Below, in pieces: positions 13,889-37,939 of a stretch of DNA of 64,000 bases. Both the position numbers and the translations under genes were made by a program. The number at the start of each line of letters is the position of its first letter. Position 1 is the stretch's first letter. The notes under the pieces are model-generated. The model did not search any database and was not told where the DNA came from. It was given only the letters and a program-made list of their open reading frames with translations. This DNA is from Naegleria gruberi (taxonomy: Eukaryota), in the NCBI GenBank assembly GCA_000004985.1, contig GG738893.1; one strand, written 5' to 3'.

Positions 13889-15445
13889 ATGAAGTTGACA
13901 TCTGCCATTGTCATGGCCATTTTGATGGCTGTGCTTTACGCTACATATGTTACCGCTTCCACAGATTCATTCGATGCATTGACAGATGCCATGGTCGAAG
14001 CAATCTATGCCAGAAGATTACCTAGATCTGGTGGAGGTGCCAGAGGTGGCTCAAGAGGAGGTGCCAGAGGAGGTGCTCGTGGAGGATCAAGAGGTGCTAG
14101 AGGAGGAGCCAGAGGTGGATCTCGTGGTGGTGCCAGAGGTGGTGCTAGAGGAGGTTCTCGTGGTGCCAGAGGTGGATCTAGAGGTGGTGCCAGAGGTGGT
14201 GCTAGAGGAGGAGCCAGAGGAGGATCAAGAGGTGGAAAAGCTGGTAAAGCTGGTAAAGGAGGTAGAGGTGGATCTAGAGGTGGTAAGGCCGGAAAGGGAG
14301 GAAAAGCTGGTAAAGGAGGAAAAGGAAAAGCTGGTAAGGGAGGAAAAGCTGGTAAAGGTGGAAAAGGAAAAGGTGGAAAAGCTGGTAAGGGAGGAAAAGG
14401 TAAAGGAAAAGGAGGTAAGGGTAAAGGTGGTAAAGGAAAAGGTGGAAAGGGAAAGAAGGATAAGAAGGGAAAGAAAGACAAGAAGGGAAAGAAGGATAAG
14501 AAAGATAAGAAGGGAAAGAAGGACAAGAAGGATAAGAATCAACAACAACAAGGTGGAGAACAAGGAGGTCAAGATGGTGGTCAACCAGGAGGTGAACAAC
14601 CACAACAACCAGAACAAGGAGGTGAACAACCACAACAACCTGAACAACCACAAGAACAACCACCAGTTGAACAACCACAACCTGAACAACCACAACAACC
14701 TGAACAAGCTCCAGTTGAACAACCACAACAACCTGAACAACAAGCTCAACCAGAACAAGCTCAACAACCTGAAGTTGCTCAACCACAAGCTCAAGAACAA
14801 CAACCACAAGCTCCAGTTGAACAAACTCAACAACCAGCTCAACAAGCTCCTGTTGAACAACAACCAATTGCTCAACAACCAGCTCAAGAACAAGCTCCAG
14901 TTGCTGCCCAACCTGTTCAAGAACAACCACAAGTTGCTCAACCTCAAGTTCAACAACCTGAAGTAGCTCAACAAGTTGCTCAAGAAGGTCCACAACCAAT
15001 TGCTCAACCTGATCAACCACAACCAGATCAACAAGTTGCTCAACAAAACCCAGACTTCCAACGTGCTCCACAATATGGTGACAAGCAAAGAATTGAATAC
15101 TTGAGAGGAATGATCAAGAAGAATATTTCCCCACAAGTTGCTCAACCAGAACAACAAGTTGCTCAACCTGAAGTAGCTCAACAAGAAGTTCCACAACCAA
15201 TTGCTCAACCTGATCAAGTTGCTCAACCAACTGAACAAACTCAACCAGCTAGAAGAACTAGAAAGTACAACAGAGGTGGTAACAGAAGAGGTACCAGAAG
15301 AAATCAATTCTCTCAAATTCCTGAATTTGGTAGATATTTCTTGGGTAATCAAGCTAAGGCTCAAAATGGTGATAACGATAGAATCAACTTTTTGAGAGGT
15401 TTGATTGATTTGCTCATTGCTCAAACTAAAGCTCAACAAAATTAA
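13889..15445 (+). CDS. Secreted low-complexity, charge-segregated repeat protein (RGG block, KGG block, KKD block, Q/P/E-rich block)
   Basis: 518-aa ORF starting with a hydrophobic signal peptide 'MKLTSAIVMAILMAVLYATYVTAS'. It then has about 15 'GG[AS]RGG' repeats, '(K[AG]GKGG)n', '(KKDKKG)n', a long 'QPEQPQQPEQ / VAQP(E/Q)' region, and two copies of a 'GD(K/N)xRI(E/N)(Y/F)LRG(M/L)I' motif. The ORFs overlapping it on both strands are repeat-shadow artefacts. Confidence 0.6.
   Translation: MKLTSAIVMAILMAVLYATYVTASTDSFDALTDAMVEAIYARRLPRSGGGARGGSRGGARGGARGGSRGARGGARGGSRGGARGGARGGSRGARGGSRGGARGGARGGARGGSRGGKAGKAGKGGRGGSRGGKAGKGGKAGKGGKGKAGKGGKAGKGGKGKGGKAGKGGKGKGKGGKGKGGKGKGGKGKKDKKGKKDKKGKKDKKDKKGKKDKKDKNQQQQGGEQGGQDGGQPGGEQPQQPEQGGEQPQQPEQPQEQPPVEQPQPEQPQQPEQAPVEQPQQPEQQAQPEQAQQPEVAQPQAQEQQPQAPVEQTQQPAQQAPVEQQPIAQQPAQEQAPVAAQPVQEQPQVAQPQVQQPEVAQQVAQEGPQPIAQPDQPQPDQQVAQQNPDFQRAPQYGDKQRIEYLRGMIKKNISPQVAQPEQQVAQPEVAQQEVPQPIAQPDQVAQPTEQTQPARRTRKYNRGGNRRGTRRNQFSQIPEFGRYFLGNQAKAQNGDNDRINFLRGLIDLLIAQTKAQQN
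14030..15250. repeat. Coding tandem repeats (about 24-27-nt RGG/KGG units, then 15-21-nt CAA/CCA-rich units) within gene 13889-15445
   Basis: Visible periodicity such as 'ggtgccagaggtggatctcgtggt...' and 'aagggaaagaaggataagaag'. Open reading frames appear in 5 of 6 frames across the region. Confidence 0.8.
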
Positions 15446-30048: not shown

Positions 30049-31983
30049 TTATGAAATTAACTTTTTGAGAACTGCTGCTTTTGTAAAGCCACCTGTCAAA
30101 ATGCCAGTTGTGGTGCAGGCACTAGCTGCTTTGACGTATTCAGTTCCCTCCTTGACATATTCATTGGCCTGTTGAATGTTCTTTTCGATAATGTTGAGTC
30201 CTTGACCTTGTTCTCTAATGAGGAAATTCATTTGTTCGTACATTTCATGAAGTTCAGCGTAATCCTTTTCCACAGCTTCCAACTCTGCCTTTGTTTCAAG
30301 GGCAATCTTCTTTTCCATTTCAATAGTTTCTGCATCGGCAGTACTGAGAATGAATTGAATCTTTTGTTGTTGATCTTGCTCCTTCTTGTGTTGGAGTTCC
30401 ATTTGCTTCTCTTCGTACTTTCTCACCAAGTGATCTGGATTGGTTGCACCCGAATCTCTAGCTCCAGCCATGATGGCTTGCATGAATTGCTTCTTTTTCA
30501 TAACTTGTTCCTCCTTCTTTCTGGCATTTCTATCCACCTTACCTTCTTTTGCTGTGGCAACGGTAGGTGAAGGAATTTCAAGAGATTTCTCTTTAGATTT
30601 CTTGGAAGTTTGTTGAGTGGTAGAAGCTCCTGTTTGATATAATACATGGTCCATTAACTCGTCAAATTCCAACATTCTTTCACTTCTCTTCTTTTTGTGA
30701 TGTCTTTCAATCTTTTGGCGTTTCTTTAAAAAGTTTTGGTATTGCTTGTCAATGTTCTCGAATTGTATTTTAAGTTTTGTTAGTTTCATAATGGTTAATT
30801 TACAGTTAGTGACCTGAGGTAATTTCTTGCTCAGTTTTGGAATAAACTTGTCCAGTAATTCCCTCTTCTTCTCAGCTTTTGAAATACATGATTGAATGGA
30901 ATTTCTAATCTTTTCAGTGTCGTTTTCAAAGTGTTCCCACTTGCTCAAGAGAGCTTCCAGTTTGTTAACCTTCTCTCCAAACATTTGAATATCCATAGCC
31001 ATAACATAGAGCAATTTGAATTGTTGTTTGGTTTTGGTAAATTCCTTCTCGCCTTCTATTTGAATAAGATTGGGTCCACTATTCGAAAACAAGTGATCCT
31101 CTCCCATGCTTGTCGTATTGGCTGATTGAAAATTCACATCATCAAAATTGAAACTCGATTCCAGAGTTGGTGTGCCGAGTGGATCAGCACCAAACCATCT
31201 GGATTTTCTCTTTTGAGCTGCATCATTGTCGAGAGGACATGCATGCTCTTCCTCTTCCTGTGGTGGTAAATCGAAATGTGGTTTGTGATCTGATTTCTTC
31301 TTTGGATGATGATCACCATTGCTTGCTGTCGTCAATGCAACAGCACCAGGTACAGGTGAAGAAGTATTACTCTTATCAGGTGATTCATTTCTCTCAGCAC
31401 CACCTTTCTTCTTCTTCTTTCCAATACCCAATTTAGAAGCCTCCTTCTCTGTAGCTCCAAAATTCAAAGGTTTCACATCCACCTGAATACTTCCACAAAT
31501 TCCATCAGTAAAAATCGAACTCCTTGTCAAGTCAGCAATTGAAGGAGCTTCCAAATCCAACTCCAACGAAGTAATATTTCCAAAATTAAATTGATTCAAA
31601 TGATCAATCGTACAAAATCCAATCGTCTCTCCATTCCTCTCCTTATCATGAACATAAATTTGTATGATATCCCGATTCGGATTCTCCAAGCCTAACAAGA
31701 AGGTCTGATTAAAGGAGGGATTTAAATTATTTCTCTTAGCCTTGGTCCTCTGTTTATAAACTCCATTCACCTTGATCATCAGATAGGGAGAAACCTCCAC
31801 TTGATTGGTCTGCTGGAGCGACGAGGCATCAATCGAGACTTTTTCTATGGTTAATTCGAGCTGGAAAAATTCGGCGGGAGAATTTCCGTTAGCATTGTTG
31901 GCGCCATTTTTTATTTGCGTTAGAAAATTCTGTTCACCCTCGCTGATGAGTCCGTGAAGGTGGTTGGTTCGACTCTTGAACAT
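30049..31983 (-). CDS. C2-domain-like N-terminus plus long coiled-coil protein with a C-terminal SNARE-like heptad segment
   Basis: 644-aa ORF. The N-terminal part 'YLMIKVNGVYKQRTKAKRNNLNPSFNQTFLLGL...IQIYVHDKERNGETIGFCTIDH' resembles a C2 domain. The central K/E-rich region is coiled coil. The C-terminus 'IEKNIQQANEYVKEGTEYVKAA' resembles a syntaxin-type SNARE motif but has no TM segment. Confidence 0.6.
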   Translation of the reverse strand: MFKSRTNHLHGLISEGEQNFLTQIKNGANNANGNSPAEFFQLELTIEKVSIDASSLQQTNQVEVSPYLMIKVNGVYKQRTKAKRNNLNPSFNQTFLLGLENPNRDIIQIYVHDKERNGETIGFCTIDHLNQFNFGNITSLELDLEAPSIADLTRSSIFTDGICGSIQVDVKPLNFGATEKEASKLGIGKKKKKGGAERNESPDKSNTSSPVPGAVALTTASNGDHHPKKKSDHKPHFDLPPQEEEEHACPLDNDAAQKRKSRWFGADPLGTPTLESSFNFDDVNFQSANTTSMGEDHLFSNSGPNLIQIEGEKEFTKTKQQFKLLYVMAMDIQMFGEKVNKLEALLSKWEHFENDTEKIRNSIQSCISKAEKKRELLDKFIPKLSKKLPQVTNCKLTIMKLTKLKIQFENIDKQYQNFLKKRQKIERHHKKKRSERMLEFDELMDHVLYQTGASTTQQTSKKSKEKSLEIPSPTVATAKEGKVDRNARKKEEQVMKKKQFMQAIMAGARDSGATNPDHLVRKYEEKQMELQHKKEQDQQQKIQFILSTADAETIEMEKKIALETKAELEAVEKDYAELHEMYEQMNFLIREQGQGLNIIEKNIQQANEYVKEGTEYVKAASACTTTGILTGGFTKAAVLKKLIS

Positions 31984-32751: not shown

Positions 32752-34465
32752 ATGGCAACTAAAAAACAATCATCCTCCTCATCACCATTAAAAAATGTTT
32801 CGGCGCCAAAAGCATCCGTTAAAGATATTCTTCAATATTTTGATATGAAATTCGATTCCTTTATGGAATATCCACCAGCTAGACAGTGTTTCTTTACCTT
32901 TTTGGAATCGACACAAAATAGTGGTATGTTTTTTTTTTAAATTTTAATAATTATTAATATTTAACATTTAAAAATTTATTTAATTTACAAAAAATGTTAA
33001 AAAAATAATAGAAATAAGTTTATTTCTAGAACAAGTTGAATTCTTCAAATCCATCAATGAACTACCAAATAGTAGTCGACGTAATAGATCGTTTGATGTT
33101 GATGAATTTTCGGATCAATTTCTTGGAGCTGCTGGAGCTACATTATGCGAATCTGCTTTATTGAAAGCTTGTGAAATTGCTGATAATTTCATTCATGATC
33201 AAGCTCCAAATGAATTGAATTTGAAATCTGATACGAAAAAGAAAATTCTGGACAAGATTGAAAAGAATAGAACGTACTATGGATTGGAATCCAAAAATGA
33301 GTATAATTGGAGTGGGAACTCTGGGAAAGGGAAACATATTTCTATAGTCCCATTCTTGGATTCGACAATATTTGATGATTTGGAGAGTCATATTTTATTG
33401 TCGTTGAAATCGAATCAGTTTGCTCCATTTTTAGAGAGTGAGATTTTCAAAGAATTTATTGAAAATCAGAAAATTGAAACCTTGTTCATGTTGGCAACAC
33501 CAAGAAAGGCAGCTTCACCTTCCTCTGCTATTCAGGCAACATCAGATAACATTGATTTTTTATTCATGTTAAATAATGCAAGTTCCACATCACGATCAAA
33601 CTCTTCAACTTCTACAGATAGTAGAGATGGAAGTTTAGCAAAGAGTTTTGTAAACTCTGAAACATTATCTGTGGGAGAGGTGAAATATCTCAAATCTGCA
33701 CTATTGGAATATGATCAGAATTTGAAGTGGACTCTTCTGACCTATTCGAAAGAGCAGGAAATTTATGTAATGATTGGTGATCACTCGTGTGAACAAAATT
33801 TTGGAAGAAAAGATTTAATGTTCTATAAGAGTGTAACACATTATCAATATTCAAGTGAGAAAGTGTTTAATGCCCTCATCAATTTTGAATTCAGAAAGAA
33901 TTATACTAATGAGCCATTAGTAGAAGGGGATTTTGTAAAATATCATCCAAAACCAAGTAATCAATTGGGTATTTTGGATTCCGAGTTATTGGAAACTGCT
34001 GTTATTTCAGAATCCTATGAAATGAAATGGCCAATCAGGAATAGAGAATTTATTTTGAGTTGTGCAGCTACAAAAAGCTTCACACCAGAAAATCCAAAAT
34101 TGGAAACTTTTTATCTATTCAAAAAATCAACTCAAAATGATGTGAATGAAACCATTCGATCAAAATTGAAAAATGTACGCGGTTGCTGCATATCAGCTCT
34201 CAAAGTTGAGCCAACTTCCCCAACCAGCTGTAAAGCCACCCAAGTTTTATTTCTGGACATGAAAGGACTCTTGACACAAAATTGGGGTCAGAAAATACTG
34301 ACCTTTAAGGGTGGATCTAAAAAGAAGGGAAGTAAAACCACACTCCAATCCACTCCTCAACAACAATTAGCTCAGTGGATTGAGAAGGATTCTCGTCTCT
34401 CACTGAATTCACCACTATCTGATGCAATTTTGAGAACACTTGCTGAAAATCAAAATATTATTTAA
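32752..34465 (+). CDS. RGS-domain protein fused to a C-terminal START/Bet v1-like lipid-binding domain; join(32752..32923,33030..34465)
   Basis: Exon 1 ends '...FFTFLESTQNS' at donor G|GTATGT. A 106-nt intron follows. Exon 2 continues 'EQVEFFKSINELPN...ALLKACEIADNFIHDQAPNE', an RGS-like pattern (F..FL.SE.S.EN..F). The C-terminal region 'KWPIRNREFILSCAA...LFLDMKGLLTQNWGQKIL' is START-like. The frame matches ORF 33161..34465. Confidence 0.7.
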
Positions 34466-34987: not shown

Positions 34988-37939
34988 TTACTCTTCTTCA
35001 CTGCTAGCTTCAGAATCACAATCATGGTCAGTATTGTCGGTTCCTTCGTTTTCGATCATTGACTGGTCGACACAAGCTCTGCAGTGACCACAACCACCAC
35101 AAATTGGAAGATATGGATTCCTCCTTCCTCTTCCACCATAACTTTCATAGGTATCAACATAGGAACCACTGGCAGCAAGGTCTGAAAGCTCTGAAGTTTG
35201 GTTGGCTTGATCTTCAAGCAATCGTTGTTCCAGTTGGAAAAGCTTCTCCAAGAATTGATTAAAATTGTCTGGGAATGAATGGGAAACTGATTCCATAAAC
35301 TTGTGAATTGCTCTCACACAGGTAAAGAATTTTCTCTCAAACAAATTAAAAGGGTCATCGTTCGCGCTGGTCATTGTCGATATTTCATTAGAGGAGAGCA
35401 GATACATATTCTTTTCTCCAGTCTTGATACATTTAAAAAAGTTTTCCACATCACAATATGGAACTAGCTCATTTCCCTGTTGAAAGAGAATGAGTAGTTT
35501 ACCTGGAAAGCAAGATAATTTGTTGTAGACATCAAAGTGGTGAGTGATGCAATTCTTAACTTCCTTTAAATTGTAATACCTTTCATCTCCAACCTTACAA
35601 ACTATTGTTGTTTTAGGGCGAGCATTCTGTTGTTTGGTACTCATAATCTTCTTATTCTTTGGATATGGCATTCGATAATATTTTTCCACTCCAAAGTTGT
35701 ATTTGGTAAACTCGAATCTAATGGTTTCATCCTCAGGTCTTACAATACCTTGTTCAGCTCCCTGAGAAGAAATATACGATAGGACATTCTCAGGTAAATT
35801 TCCTAAAACTACCTTGAGAACATCAAAACAAGGTGATTCCAAGCAAAGTCCACTCACTGTTGGAAAATTTGAAACAAAATGGATAGCACAAGTACTTCCC
35901 AGAAATCCCTTTCCATACACTACCACTTGAGACATTGGTATTTTGAGTCGTGTCGTGAATAAATGATGAACCAACTTGTAGTCAGTCTCTAGAAATCTAT
36001 GCAAGGAAGTTCTTTCATCCTCACCTTTGGCGCACGTGCTATATCCAAAACCTCTATATTCGAAAATAAATATCTGCAAACCCATCGAAATAATAAAATC
36101 TTTGAACTTCCTTAGTGAAGGTTGGAAGAAATACTCAAAAGCTTCCTCACATCCGTCATGGAATAATAGTAAGGTCTTTTTGGAGGTTGTAGAACTGGAA
36201 TCATCTTGTTTTGTGGAGGTACTTGGCTGCTCGTTTTGGCCAACCATCTCAAAATAACATGAAAGAGTAGCTCCATCCTCACAAACAATATCCACTGTTG
36301 GCACATTTGGAACTGAATTTGATTGAGTCTCGGTTTTTCGTCTACGCCATTTGAATTCCTTTACAAACTTTTCATCGAAAAGAAATGGGTTTTGCTCCTC
36401 CTTCTTTGGAGAGGAAGTTCCAACTGTGGAAACAGCAGGGCTTTCTTCTATCAGTTGAGGTAGGACATATGGATTTGTCAAAAATTCCCTTGGCCCAAGA
36501 ACTTCATAATTAAAAGCCTTACAGAAAATTGGTTGTTCCAATATTTTACAATATCGTTTGAAAACTTGATTCTTAAAAACTTGTAAATCATTGAATAAAA
36601 GATCATTTTCAAAAGGAGCTTGTTCTTTTTGTTGTCCTTTTTTCGTAGAGTTACTAGAGGTAGGATGTTGATCGCCAGAAGTTGATAGACTTGTCATGAA
36701 CGTCATCTTTTTCAAGTAAGTTTTGTTTCTTGTTTTTACAGTAGTTTCCACATTTTTAATTCCAGTTTCTTGTCGTTTCTTCTTTGGTTTCTTCTTTTCA
36801 TCCTCAACATTAGCAAACAAATCCATTGAAACTTTTCCTGACAAGAGAGCAGATGGTGTTAATGTCTGCATTGGAGTATTTTTAAAGACAGTATTTTGAG
36901 TGAGAACCTTTTCCTTTTCATTATTATTATCAGTGAATGCGTTAATATCTACAGGTTTCACTGAATTTTTCTTTTTTTGAGCTAATTTCCTCGAAATGAT
37001 ATTATCCATAGAAGGTTCCTCTTCCTGTCTCGACTTTGGGAATATATCCATTATTGCTCTTGTATTATTTCCATTATTATTATTATGAATTTGTTGCTGC
37101 TGCTGATGATTATGATTAATATTTGAGGCTCCAACAGCAAGATTATTCAAATTTCCTCCACTCGTATTATTCGAAGAAAGATCCACTGATGGAGTAGATT
37201 CCACACTCTTCACCGATAACCCATCAAGATCCAACTCTTGATGATTTATACAATTTGTTCCAGCTGGAACATTACCACCATTCATATTGCCACTACCTCC
37301 ATTACTTCTCGAACCTGATACACCATGTTGATTATTTTTTTCAGAAAGTTGTAAATGATTTTGGCGGGAAAGATTTGGCGTCAAGTTTGATAAAAGTCTC
37401 TTAAAAAAAGAAGCAGCACCACCCTGTGTAGGAGAATGAATCGTAGTATTTGCTGTTGTATTGATGTTGTTCATGGTGTTGGTGAAGGTTGGTGAAGGAA
37501 GTGGTGAGGATGATACTAATAATGGTTGGTGTTGTTGGTTTTGATCGTGCGATGATGAAACATGTTGTTCATCATCACCGCTAGCAATGAAATGATTGTT
37601 GGTTGATGAAAATTCGATATTTTGTGATTGTGATGGTGGAACATGTTGGTGATGATTGTTGTGACTTGGTGATAAATCATTGTTTAGAAAGGGTTTAGGA
37701 TTGTGTTTAATTGGAGAGGTAGATGCATCATTTGGTTGTTGCATATTTTCTAATGTATTCGAATAATTGTTTAAATTATTGGAATGTGCAATAGTATCGG
37801 TTGGACTATTATTTGGATTGTTATTATGCTGTTCCGAAGAAATCATGTTGTATGTTTGGGTGGACAGCAATTGTTGGCAGAGTCGCTTATCATGGATTTT
37901 TTTTGATTTATGACAGAAAAAGCATTTAACGTTGGGCAT
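34988..37939 (-). CDS. Large low-complexity protein with a C-terminal alpha/beta-hydrolase-like domain (ABHD/FAM108-like, nucleophile motif altered) and a terminal Cys cluster
   Basis: 983-aa ORF. The N-terminal half is N/Q/S-rich. The domain reads 'LLLFHDGCEEAFEYF...FIFEYRGFGYS...VVVYGKGFLGSTCAIHF'. The C-terminal cluster is 'CGGCGHCRACVD'. Confidence 0.55.
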   Translation of the reverse strand: MPNVKCFFCHKSKKIHDKRLCQQLLSTQTYNMISSEQHNNNPNNSPTDTIAHSNNLNNYSNTLENMQQPNDASTSPIKHNPKPFLNNDLSPSHNNHHQHVPPSQSQNIEFSSTNNHFIASGDDEQHVSSSHDQNQQHQPLLVSSSPLPSPTFTNTMNNINTTANTTIHSPTQGGAASFFKRLLSNLTPNLSRQNHLQLSEKNNQHGVSGSRSNGGSGNMNGGNVPAGTNCINHQELDLDGLSVKSVESTPSVDLSSNNTSGGNLNNLAVGASNINHNHQQQQQIHNNNNGNNTRAIMDIFPKSRQEEEPSMDNIISRKLAQKKKNSVKPVDINAFTDNNNEKEKVLTQNTVFKNTPMQTLTPSALLSGKVSMDLFANVEDEKKKPKKKRQETGIKNVETTVKTRNKTYLKKMTFMTSLSTSGDQHPTSSNSTKKGQQKEQAPFENDLLFNDLQVFKNQVFKRYCKILEQPIFCKAFNYEVLGPREFLTNPYVLPQLIEESPAVSTVGTSSPKKEEQNPFLFDEKFVKEFKWRRRKTETQSNSVPNVPTVDIVCEDGATLSCYFEMVGQNEQPSTSTKQDDSSSTTSKKTLLLFHDGCEEAFEYFFQPSLRKFKDFIISMGLQIFIFEYRGFGYSTCAKGEDERTSLHRFLETDYKLVHHLFTTRLKIPMSQVVVYGKGFLGSTCAIHFVSNFPTVSGLCLESPCFDVLKVVLGNLPENVLSYISSQGAEQGIVRPEDETIRFEFTKYNFGVEKYYRMPYPKNKKIMSTKQQNARPKTTIVCKVGDERYYNLKEVKNCITHHFDVYNKLSCFPGKLLILFQQGNELVPYCDVENFFKCIKTGEKNMYLLSSNEISTMTSANDDPFNLFERKFFTCVRAIHKFMESVSHSFPDNFNQFLEKLFQLEQRLLEDQANQTSELSDLAASGSYVDTYESYGGRGRRNPYLPICGGCGHCRACVDQSMIENEGTDNTDHDCDSEASSEEE

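What the first reader, a model, noticed from the sequence alone, without database searches (positions are those of the whole stretch)
32752..34465. RGS domain fused to a START/Bet v1-like lipid-binding domain
The N-terminal region matches the RGS helical pattern across an in-phase 106-nt intron (FFTFLESTQNS|EQVEFFKSINE). The C-terminal 200 aa read as a START-type lipid-binding domain. This would link G-alpha GAP activity to a lipid or sterol sensor, an uncommon pairing worth documenting.
Basis: partly seen in the sequence, partly recalled or inferred. Interest (0 to 1): 0.55.

Follow-up and report, generated by a model that had tools for sequence, protein, structure and literature searches.

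The report
Naegleria RGS protein with hidden START domain

Summary
The window is Naegleria gruberi NEG-M. The neighbouring ORF is identical to XP_002673108.1.

**Gene model.** The gene at 32752-34465 (+) is real and has two exons. The acceptor is most likely AG 33010-11, not 33028-29.
- This gives an 88-nt intron, not 106 nt, and a 541-aa product, not 535 aa.
- The 541-aa product is exactly XP_002673024.1 / UniProt D2VS51, "RGS domain-containing protein".
- The 18 disputed bases encode ISLFLE. They are conserved as coding sequence in three relatives.

**RGS domain.** It is confirmed: Pfam PF00615 scores 48.8-53.5 bits, covers the full profile and spans the splice junction. The equivalents of RGS4 Glu87 and Asn128 are kept.

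**Context.** RGS-START is a recurrent family in Heterolobosea (Naegleria, Willaertia, Acrasis). The pairing was already noted in a 2014 survey.

**Function (inferred).** The protein is most likely a Gα GTPase-activating protein (GAP) that is targeted or regulated by lipid binding.

Interest is modest.

The parts
32752..32923 (+). Exon 1 (codons 1-57 plus the first base of codon 58). It encodes the N-terminus and RGS helices alpha1-alpha3.
   Evidence: ATG at 32752 with an in-frame TAG at 32746-48. tblastn identity to the N-termini of N. lovaniensis and N. fowleri is 59% and 55%. It is part of the exact match to XP_002673024.1.
32924..33011 (+). Intron, 88 nt, GTATGT...AATAG, phase 1.
   Evidence: Splicing it out reproduces XP_002673024.1 exactly. 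The orthologues have an intron at the same position and phase: 172 nt in N. lovaniensis and 146 nt in N. fowleri.
33012..33029 (+). They encode (E)ISLFL(E) of RGS helix alpha3/alpha4. The AG at 33028-29 is a cryptic or at most alternative in-frame acceptor.
   Evidence: Conserved as EITLFL in N. lovaniensis and N. fowleri, which have CTCGAA/CTCGAG and so no usable AG. Four substitutions, all synonymous, and no AG in Logan strain SRR25266747. Required for an ungapped RGS alignment.
33012..34465 (+). Exon 2, including the stop codon TAA at 34463-65.
   Evidence: Continuous ORF. Aligned to the orthologues along its full length.
32848..33457 (+). RGS domain, residues 33-206 of the 541-aa product, interrupted by the intron. 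It has two lineage-specific loop insertions (about residues 76-106 and 144-174).
   Evidence: Pfam PF00615, 48.8 bits, profile positions 1-117 of 117. PDB sequence hits are RGS6, 7, 9, 17 and 18. E58 and N127 correspond to RGS4 E87 and N128.
33458..33664 (+). Ser/Thr-rich linker, residues 207-275, with low-complexity stretches.
   Evidence: No family hit. Poorly conserved between orthologues. Very low pLDDT in the full-length model, which was poor throughout.
33665..34447 (+). Divergent START (helix-grip) domain, residues 276-536. It contains the conserved motif WPIRNREF at 34028-34051 (W397-F404).

Best explanation
This is the N. gruberi NEG-M gene for XP_002673024.1 (D2VS51). It encodes a soluble 541-aa signalling protein.

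**Shown.** An N-terminal RGS domain is joined by a disordered Ser/Thr-rich linker to a C-terminal, highly divergent START lipid-binding domain.

**Inferred mechanism.**
- The RGS domain binds the switch regions of one or more of Naegleria's many Gα subunits in the transition state and speeds up GTP hydrolysis. This is canonical GAP action. It rests on the kept Glu87 and Asn128 equivalents and on the canonical GAP behaviour shown for other Naegleria RGS domains.
- The START domain binds a hydrophobic ligand, or docks on a membrane that contains one.
- In this way it either places the GAP at a specific membrane or makes GAP activity depend on lipid occupancy.
- This is the same logic as in the metazoan DLC RhoGAP-START proteins.

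The protein is one orthologue group of a heterolobosean RGS-START family found in Naegleria, Willaertia and Acrasis.
For: - **Identity of the gene.** Exact match of the 541-aa product to XP_002673024.1. The neighbouring ORF is an exact match to N. gruberi XP_002673108.1.
- **RGS.** Pfam scores of 48.8/53.5 bits over the whole profile. PDB hits are RGS6, 7, 9, 17 and 18. The E87 and N128 equivalents are invariant in 9/9 family members, and D163 is replaced by N/S/T.
- **START, by sequence.** Only 12 hits among 1.84 billion representatives. The remote hits are RGS+START proteins, six of which are above the Pfam START cut-off. They come from Willaertia magna, N. gruberi and Acrasis kona. Orthologue profile against paralogue profile gives hhalign 99.6%. 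The paralogue profile finds 16 PDB hits, all START. The N. lovaniensis orthologue has a sub-threshold Pfam START hit of 17.5 bits.
- **START, by fold.** Helix-grip model with a START-only top list.
- **Conservation.** The architecture is conserved full-length in N. lovaniensis and N. fowleri at 48-50% identity.
- **Literature.** N. fowleri RGS domains act as canonical GAPs, and that genome encodes 79 non-7TM RGS proteins (PMC9283941).
Against: - This protein has no direct Pfam START hit, and the orthologue-only profile finds no PDB sequence. The START call therefore depends on transitive homology and on a predicted model.
- That model was built from an alignment that includes START-positive paralogues.
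- The segment before the C-terminal helices (fragment residues 216-249) is divergent and modelled at low confidence. The usual C-terminal lid may therefore be altered.
- The equivalents of RGS4 N88 and R167 are not conserved.
- GAP activity, the Gα partner, the ligand and any coupling between the two domains are all untested.
- The full-length model was useless (pLDDT 31), so nothing is known about contacts between the domains.
Confidence: 0.55

Rival explanations
1. Gα-recruited lipid-transfer protein. The START domain is the working part and extracts or transfers a lipid between membranes. The RGS domain serves mainly as a targeting module that docks on activated Gα at a particular membrane, much as the PH domain targets CERT. 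GAP activity would be secondary or absent.
For: By sequence and fold, the closest START structures are genuine lipid-transfer domains: STARD10, CERT, STARD4/5 and StAR. Several RGS contact positions (the N88 and R167 equivalents) are not conserved. From general knowledge, some RGS-homology domains (GRK2, RGS-RhoGEFs, SNX14) bind without acting as GAPs.
Against: The two residues most tied to GAP function (E87 and N128 equivalents) are invariant across the family. All Naegleria RGS domains tested so far, including the RGS-RhoGEF one, behave as canonical GAPs (PMC9283941). No second membrane-targeting motif such as FFAT, PH or a transmembrane segment was found by Pfam.
Confidence: 0.2
2. The C-terminal domain keeps the START fold but no longer binds lipid. 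It acts instead as a protein-interaction or autoinhibitory module for the RGS domain.
For: This orthologue group is so divergent that Pfam START and PDB profile searches fail. The C-terminal lid region is rebuilt, with a basic, low-confidence insert KGGSKKKGSK. N. lovaniensis and N. fowleri carry long low-complexity insertions inside the domain.
Against: The core strands and the WP-x3-R-[DE]-F motif are strictly conserved from Naegleria to Acrasis. The insertions fall in loops of the model, not in strands. The fold match covers about 190-200 residues at 2.5-2.8 Å.
Confidence: 0.15
3. The reader's 106-nt intron (acceptor AG 33028-29) is the main or a co-dominant splice form, giving a 535-aa protein that lacks ISLFLE.
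For: That acceptor has the better pyrimidine tract (TTTATTTCTAG) and is in frame. The Pfam RGS score is slightly higher for the 535-aa form, 53.5 against 48.8 bits.
Against: - The 18 nt evolve as coding sequence: four synonymous changes and no non-synonymous ones in a close strain, and EITLFL in two other species.
- The downstream AG exists only in NEG-M.
- The upstream AG is met first, and its context matches the orthologues' acceptors.
- The deposited gene model uses the upstream site.
- The 535-aa form deletes the conserved Phe-Leu core of helix alpha3 that all paralogues have.
Confidence: 0.07
4. There is no fusion. Exon 1 is not part of the transcript, and the protein starts inside the long ORF with a truncated RGS domain.
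For: Prokaryote-style gene calling on Logan contigs produced exactly such truncated models, P0001 and P0003.
Against: - The ORF alone covers only RGS profile positions 49-117.
- Exon 1 is conserved at the protein level in three species, with the same intron position and phase.
- The annotated proteins of N. gruberi, N. lovaniensis and N. fowleri all include it.
Confidence: 0.02

Closest known systems
Naegleria gruberi NEG-M XP_002673024.1 / EFC40280.1 / UniProt D2VS51, 'RGS domain-containing protein'
   Same: Identical in sequence to the 541-aa product of this locus once the 88-nt intron is used.
   Different: Nothing differs in sequence. The source name mentions only RGS. Pfam finds no START in this protein when scanned here, and the precomputed Pfam entries listed for its orthologues P0001-P0003 show PF00615 only.
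Heterolobosean RGS-START paralogues: Willaertia magna KAL9647909.1, KAL9652410.1, KAL9658060.1 and KAL9642295.1; N. gruberi NAEGRDRAFT_53933; Acrasis kona AKO1_009658
   Same: In the Willaertia and Acrasis members the order is N-terminal RGS, linker, START. The same conserved motifs occur (E and N in the RGS domain; WP-x3-R-[DE]-F in START). Homologous along the START domain at hhalign 99.6%.
   Different: Only 20-28% identical to the window's START domain. Their START domains are closer to the Pfam model. The C-terminal helix region (K-x-RAK-x-F-x-K-x-GLKYLK) is replaced in the window's orthologue group. NAEGRDRAFT_53933 has a roughly 600-aa N-terminal extension with only a sub-threshold partial RGS match just before the START domain. 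The Acrasis protein adds a C-terminal BLUF domain.
DLC1/2/3 (STARD12/13/8), metazoan RhoGAP-START proteins
   Different: Their GAP domain is a RhoGAP acting on small GTPases, not an RGS acting on Gα. No RhoGAP or SAM domain is found here. This is an independent domain fusion, an analogy and not family membership.
SNX13/SNX14/SNX25 (RGS-PX sorting nexins)
   Same: An RGS domain is combined with lipid-recognising modules in one polypeptide (general knowledge; mentioned in PMC3971589).
   Different: Those proteins use PX, PXA and PXC domains and transmembrane anchors. None of these is detected here.
Canonical R4/R7 RGS domains (RGS4, RGS2, RGS7, RGS9)
   Same: Full-length match to the nine-helix RGS profile, with the Glu87 and Asn128 equivalents kept. 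Asn at the Asp163 position also occurs in RGS2 (general knowledge, not tested here).
   Different: Two large loop insertions. Trp92 is replaced by Leu, Asn88 by Ile and Arg167 by Pro.
STARD10 / CERT / STARD4-5 START domains
   Different: Only 11-16% identical. There is no direct profile hit from the orthologue group. The ligand-contact residues could not be mapped, so ligand class is unknown.

Membership tests
RGS domain (Pfam PF00615) | A match to the family profile above the curated cut-off, over the whole domain | tested here: met
   48.8 bits (541-aa model) and 53.5 bits (535-aa model) against a cut-off of 23.9; profile positions 1-117 of 117.
RGS domain (Pfam PF00615) | Conserved Gα switch-contact residues (RGS4 Glu87 and Asn128; Asp163 or a polar equivalent) | tested here: met
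   E58 and N127 align to E87 and N128 and are invariant in 9/9 family members. D163 is replaced by N192. The N88 and R167 equivalents are not conserved. The RGS4 sequence was recalled from memory; it has the expected residues at positions 85, 87, 88, 128, 163 and 167.
RGS domain (Pfam PF00615) | GTPase-accelerating activity on a Gα subunit | not testable with these tools
   This needs recombinant protein and Gα assays such as those in PMC9283941.
START domain (Pfam PF01852) | A direct match to the family profile above the curated cut-off | tested here: not met
   No START hit for the window protein at E<=10. The N. lovaniensis orthologue scores 17.5 bits against a cut-off of 22. The orthologue-only profile finds no PDB sequence.
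START domain (Pfam PF01852) | Demonstrable homology to proteins that do pass the START threshold | tested here: met
   phmmer E-values from 5e-10 to 3e-4 to ten proteins, six of them above the START cut-off. hhalign gives 99.6%, E 6.6e-24, over 239 columns. The paralogue profile finds 16 PDB hits, all START.
START domain (Pfam PF01852) | Helix-grip fold of START size (about 210 residues): N-terminal helix, nine-stranded sheet, C-terminal helix | tested here: met
START domain (Pfam PF01852) | Binding of a lipid or sterol in the internal cavity | not testable with these tools
   No model coordinates were available for cavity analysis, and no biochemistry could be done.
DLC/STARD8-12-13 RhoGAP-START family | A RhoGAP domain upstream of the START domain | tested here: not met
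   Pfam finds only RGS in the N-terminal part. This is an analogy of design only.
RGS-PX sorting nexins (SNX13/14/25) | PXA, PX and PXC domains flanking the RGS domain | tested here: not met
   No PX, PXA or PXC (nexin C) hit at E<=10.

The most novel reading that the evidence does not exclude
The divergent START domain acts as a lipid-gated switch on the RGS domain. Occupancy by a specific membrane lipid (sterol, ceramide or phospholipid) would then directly set the lifetime of Gα-GTP. On this reading, heterolobosean amoebae built a modular set of 'sensor-RGS' proteins, including a light-sensing RGS-START-BLUF variant in Acrasis, that feed metabolic and environmental cues straight into heterotrimeric G-protein signalling without a receptor.
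Probability: 0.2. Interest if true: 0.55.

Novelty: new member of a known kind. Interest (0 to 1): 0.3.

Why it matters
- **Annotation.** This orthologue group is labelled only "RGS domain-containing" or "hypothetical" in N. gruberi, N. lovaniensis and the pathogen N. fowleri. It gains a second domain that Pfam misses.
- **Biology.** It shows that RGS-START is a conserved, expanded architecture in Heterolobosea. Naegleria has an unusually large G-protein system: 79 non-7TM RGS proteins in N. fowleri (PMC9283941). Which inputs control those RGS proteins is largely unknown, and a lipid-binding partner domain gives a testable hypothesis for one subgroup.
- **Method.** A plausible-looking acceptor with a good pyrimidine tract was wrong by 18 in-frame bases. 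Comparison with orthologues was what revealed this; the Pfam score did not.
- **Limits.** The domain pairing has been noted before and no function has been shown, so the advance is incremental.

Tried and rejected
- **Full-length AlphaFold model.** Built from a four-sequence alignment, it reached pLDDT 31 and pTM 0.23. It was unusable and was not searched.
- **Orthologue-only START profile (A3) against PDB sequences.** No hit at E<=10. The START call therefore had to go through the paralogues.
- **"The gene is unannotated in N. gruberi."** I first thought so, because one search returned no N. gruberi protein and the 535-aa product was not in the collection. This was wrong. The deposited protein sits in a cluster whose representative is a 121-aa fragment (P0004), and it matches exactly once the correct acceptor is used.
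- **Viewing the NCBI annotation through the neighbouring gene.** The look-up of encoding contigs returned only a 3.5-kb metagenome contig.
- **afdb50 fold library.** Not available.
- **Literature.** Anantharaman et al. 2011 (PMC3396428) is not held. The supplements of PMC3971589 are not held. A search for the locus tags and accessions found no paper.
- **Other family members in the window.** None; tblastn hits fall only at this locus.
- **Using the Pfam score to choose between the two acceptors.** It slightly favours the model that is probably wrong (53.5 against 48.8 bits), so it was set aside as a criterion.
- **Ligand class from sequence.** Not attempted beyond noting the nearest structures. 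Identities of 11-16% are too low, and no model coordinates were accessible.

Full report
**Where the window comes from.**
The sequence is AT-rich (about 31-42% GC, mostly 32-37%) and eukaryotic. The ORF at 30049-31983 (-) is letter-for-letter XP_002673108.1, a C2 domain protein of Naegleria gruberi strain NEG-M. The window is therefore N. gruberi NEG-M.

**Checking the observation.**
- On the + strand an ATG at 32752 is preceded by an in-frame TAG two codons upstream.
- The reading frame runs to a donor G|GTATGT after base 32923. The long ORF that ends at TAA 34463-65 follows.
- The intron splits a codon (G|AA), so it is phase 1.

**The acceptor is most likely 18 nt further upstream.**
- tblastn alignments of the N. 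lovaniensis and N. fowleri orthologues start at 33011, not 33030.
- Using AG 33010-11 gives an 88-nt intron and a 541-aa product with EISLFLEQVEFF. The orthologues have EITLFLEQIEIF.
- The 541-aa sequence is exactly XP_002673024.1 / EFC40280.1 / UniProt D2VS51, "RGS domain-containing protein [N. gruberi NEG-M]". The 535-aa sequence is not in the collection.
- The annotated N. lovaniensis and N. fowleri proteins are each reproduced by a single phase-1 intron at the same codon. These introns are 172 nt and 146 nt long and end AAATATAG|AAAT, like AAATAATAG|AAAT here.
- In a strain 86% identical at the DNA level (Logan SRR25266747), the 18 nt differ at four positions. All four changes are synonymous, and again there is no downstream AG.
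- With the 541-aa model, the RGS alpha3-alpha4 region aligns without gaps to RGS4 and to every paralogue. The 535-aa model would delete six residues, including the conserved Phe-Leu.
- The Pfam score does not discriminate, and even slightly favours the shorter form (53.5 against 48.8 bits).
- Only RNA-seq can exclude minor use of the second, in-frame AG.

**RGS domain.**
- PF00615 matches residues 33-206 of the 541-aa product over the whole profile (positions 1-117 of 117). The score is well above the cut-off of 23.9 bits.
- The long ORF alone covers only profile positions 49-117. Exon 1 is therefore needed for a complete domain.
- PDB sequence hits are RGS6, 7, 9, 17 and 18.
- Aligned to rat RGS4, E58 corresponds to Glu87 and N127 to Asn128. 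Both are invariant in all nine family members examined. Asp163 is replaced by Asn, and Asn88, Trp92 and Arg167 are not kept. The RGS4 sequence was recalled from memory; its residues at the numbered positions are as expected.
- Two loop insertions are lineage-specific.
- In N. fowleri, all RGS domains tested so far act as canonical GAPs that are sensitive to the switch-1 Gly-to-Ser mutation. That genome encodes 79 RGS proteins besides the 7TM class (PMC9283941).

**C-terminal domain.**
- Pfam gives no START hit for this protein, even at E<=10. A profile of the four close orthologues finds nothing among PDB sequences.
- A phmmer scan of the last 281 residues against 1.84 billion representatives found only 12 proteins.
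- The ten remote hits (E from 5e-10 to 3e-4) all show Pfam START matches, six of them above the curated cut-off. Seven also have an RGS match above its cut-off, N-terminal to the START domain, and two more have a sub-threshold RGS match.
- These proteins come from Willaertia magna, N. gruberi (NAEGRDRAFT_53933), Acrasis kona and environmental assemblies.
- Profile-profile comparison of the orthologue group with these paralogues gives probability 99.6%, E 6.6e-24, over 239 columns.
- The paralogue profile alone hits 16 PDB sequences, every one a START domain: STARD10 at 1.4e-10, STARD6, StAR, CERT, STARD13, STARD4, STARD3 and STARD5.
- The N. lovaniensis orthologue has a sub-threshold Pfam START hit of 17.5 bits.
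- An AlphaFold model of the domain, built on the 13-sequence alignment, reached pLDDT 71.8 and pTM 0.77. Its order of elements is helix, three strands, two helices, six strands, C-terminal helices.
- Foldseek against the PDB puts START domains in the first 47 places, down to E 3.4e-11.
- The domain is therefore a START domain proper, though a very divergent one.
- Caveats: the model is a prediction informed by START-positive paralogues, and the stretch before the C-terminal helices is modelled at low confidence.

**What it most likely does.**
- Shown: the architecture is RGS, then a Ser/Thr-rich linker, then START. It is conserved at 48-50% identity in N. lovaniensis and N. fowleri. It is shared with a paralogous heterolobosean family.
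- Inferred: the RGS domain is a GAP for one or more Naegleria Gα subunits. The START domain binds a lipid or a lipid-containing membrane and so localises or gates the GAP.
- The closest analogy in design is the metazoan DLC RhoGAP-START group. It is not a member of that group, because no RhoGAP domain is present.
- Rivals:
  - a Gα-recruited lipid-transfer protein;
  - a START fold that no longer binds lipid and is reused for protein contacts;

**Novelty.**
- The gene is already in GenBank and UniProt, named for its RGS domain only.
- A survey of GPCR signalling evolution already lists START among the domains found with RGS in divergent taxa (PMC3971589).
- No paper mentions this gene or its orthologues by accession.
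- New here are the cryptic START domain in this orthologue group, the corrected reading of the splice site relative to the first-stage proposal, and the view of a heterolobosean RGS-START family.
- I rate it a new member of a known kind, with modest interest (0.3).

Noticed in passing
P0014 (Acrasis kona AKO1_009658, 585 aa; not in the window): A relative of the window's START domain has the architecture RGS - START - BLUF (Pfam BLUF 69.1 bits, START 30.5, RGS 24.5). This would be a possibly blue-light-responsive RGS protein in another heterolobosean.
   Followed up: partly
window 13889-15445 (+): A 518-aa ORF with a signal-peptide-like N-terminus, followed by long tracts of (GGAR/GGSR)n, (KGG/KAG)n, (KKD)n and (PEQPQQ)n. 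It explains the local GC peak (0.42) and the strong AT skew (0.30) at 14-16 kb.
   Followed up: no
window 34988-37939 (-): A 983-aa ORF immediately downstream on the opposite strand. Its N-terminal part is rich in Asn, Gln and Ser. It has no Pfam hit at E<=0.1, and the exact ORF translation is not in the protein collection, so the deposited gene model may differ.
   Followed up: partly
window 30049-31983 (-): The upstream neighbour is identical to N. gruberi XP_002673108.1. It has a C2 domain (45.9 bits) followed by a long charged, probably coiled-coil region.
   Followed up: partly
L002 1787-5568 (Logan SRR25266747 contig) compared with window 34466 onward: In the strain that is 86% identical, the gene is followed on the same strand by a PAS+RGS protein and RCC1-repeat genes. 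None of these has a match anywhere in the 64-kb window. This is either a synteny break just after the stop codon or a chimeric assembly.
   Followed up: partly
Protein collection, cluster of P0004/P0020: The deposited N. gruberi protein (541 aa) is clustered under a 121-aa fragment as representative. The first homology search therefore did not show it, and the gene looked unannotated. This is a trap when judging novelty from representative-only searches.
   Followed up: yes
L001 6001-7996 and L004 2459-4482 (N. lovaniensis and N. fowleri orthologues): Both orthologues carry long Ser/Asn/Thr-rich low-complexity insertions in an RGS loop and in two loops of the START domain. N. gruberi lacks these insertions.
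   Followed up: no
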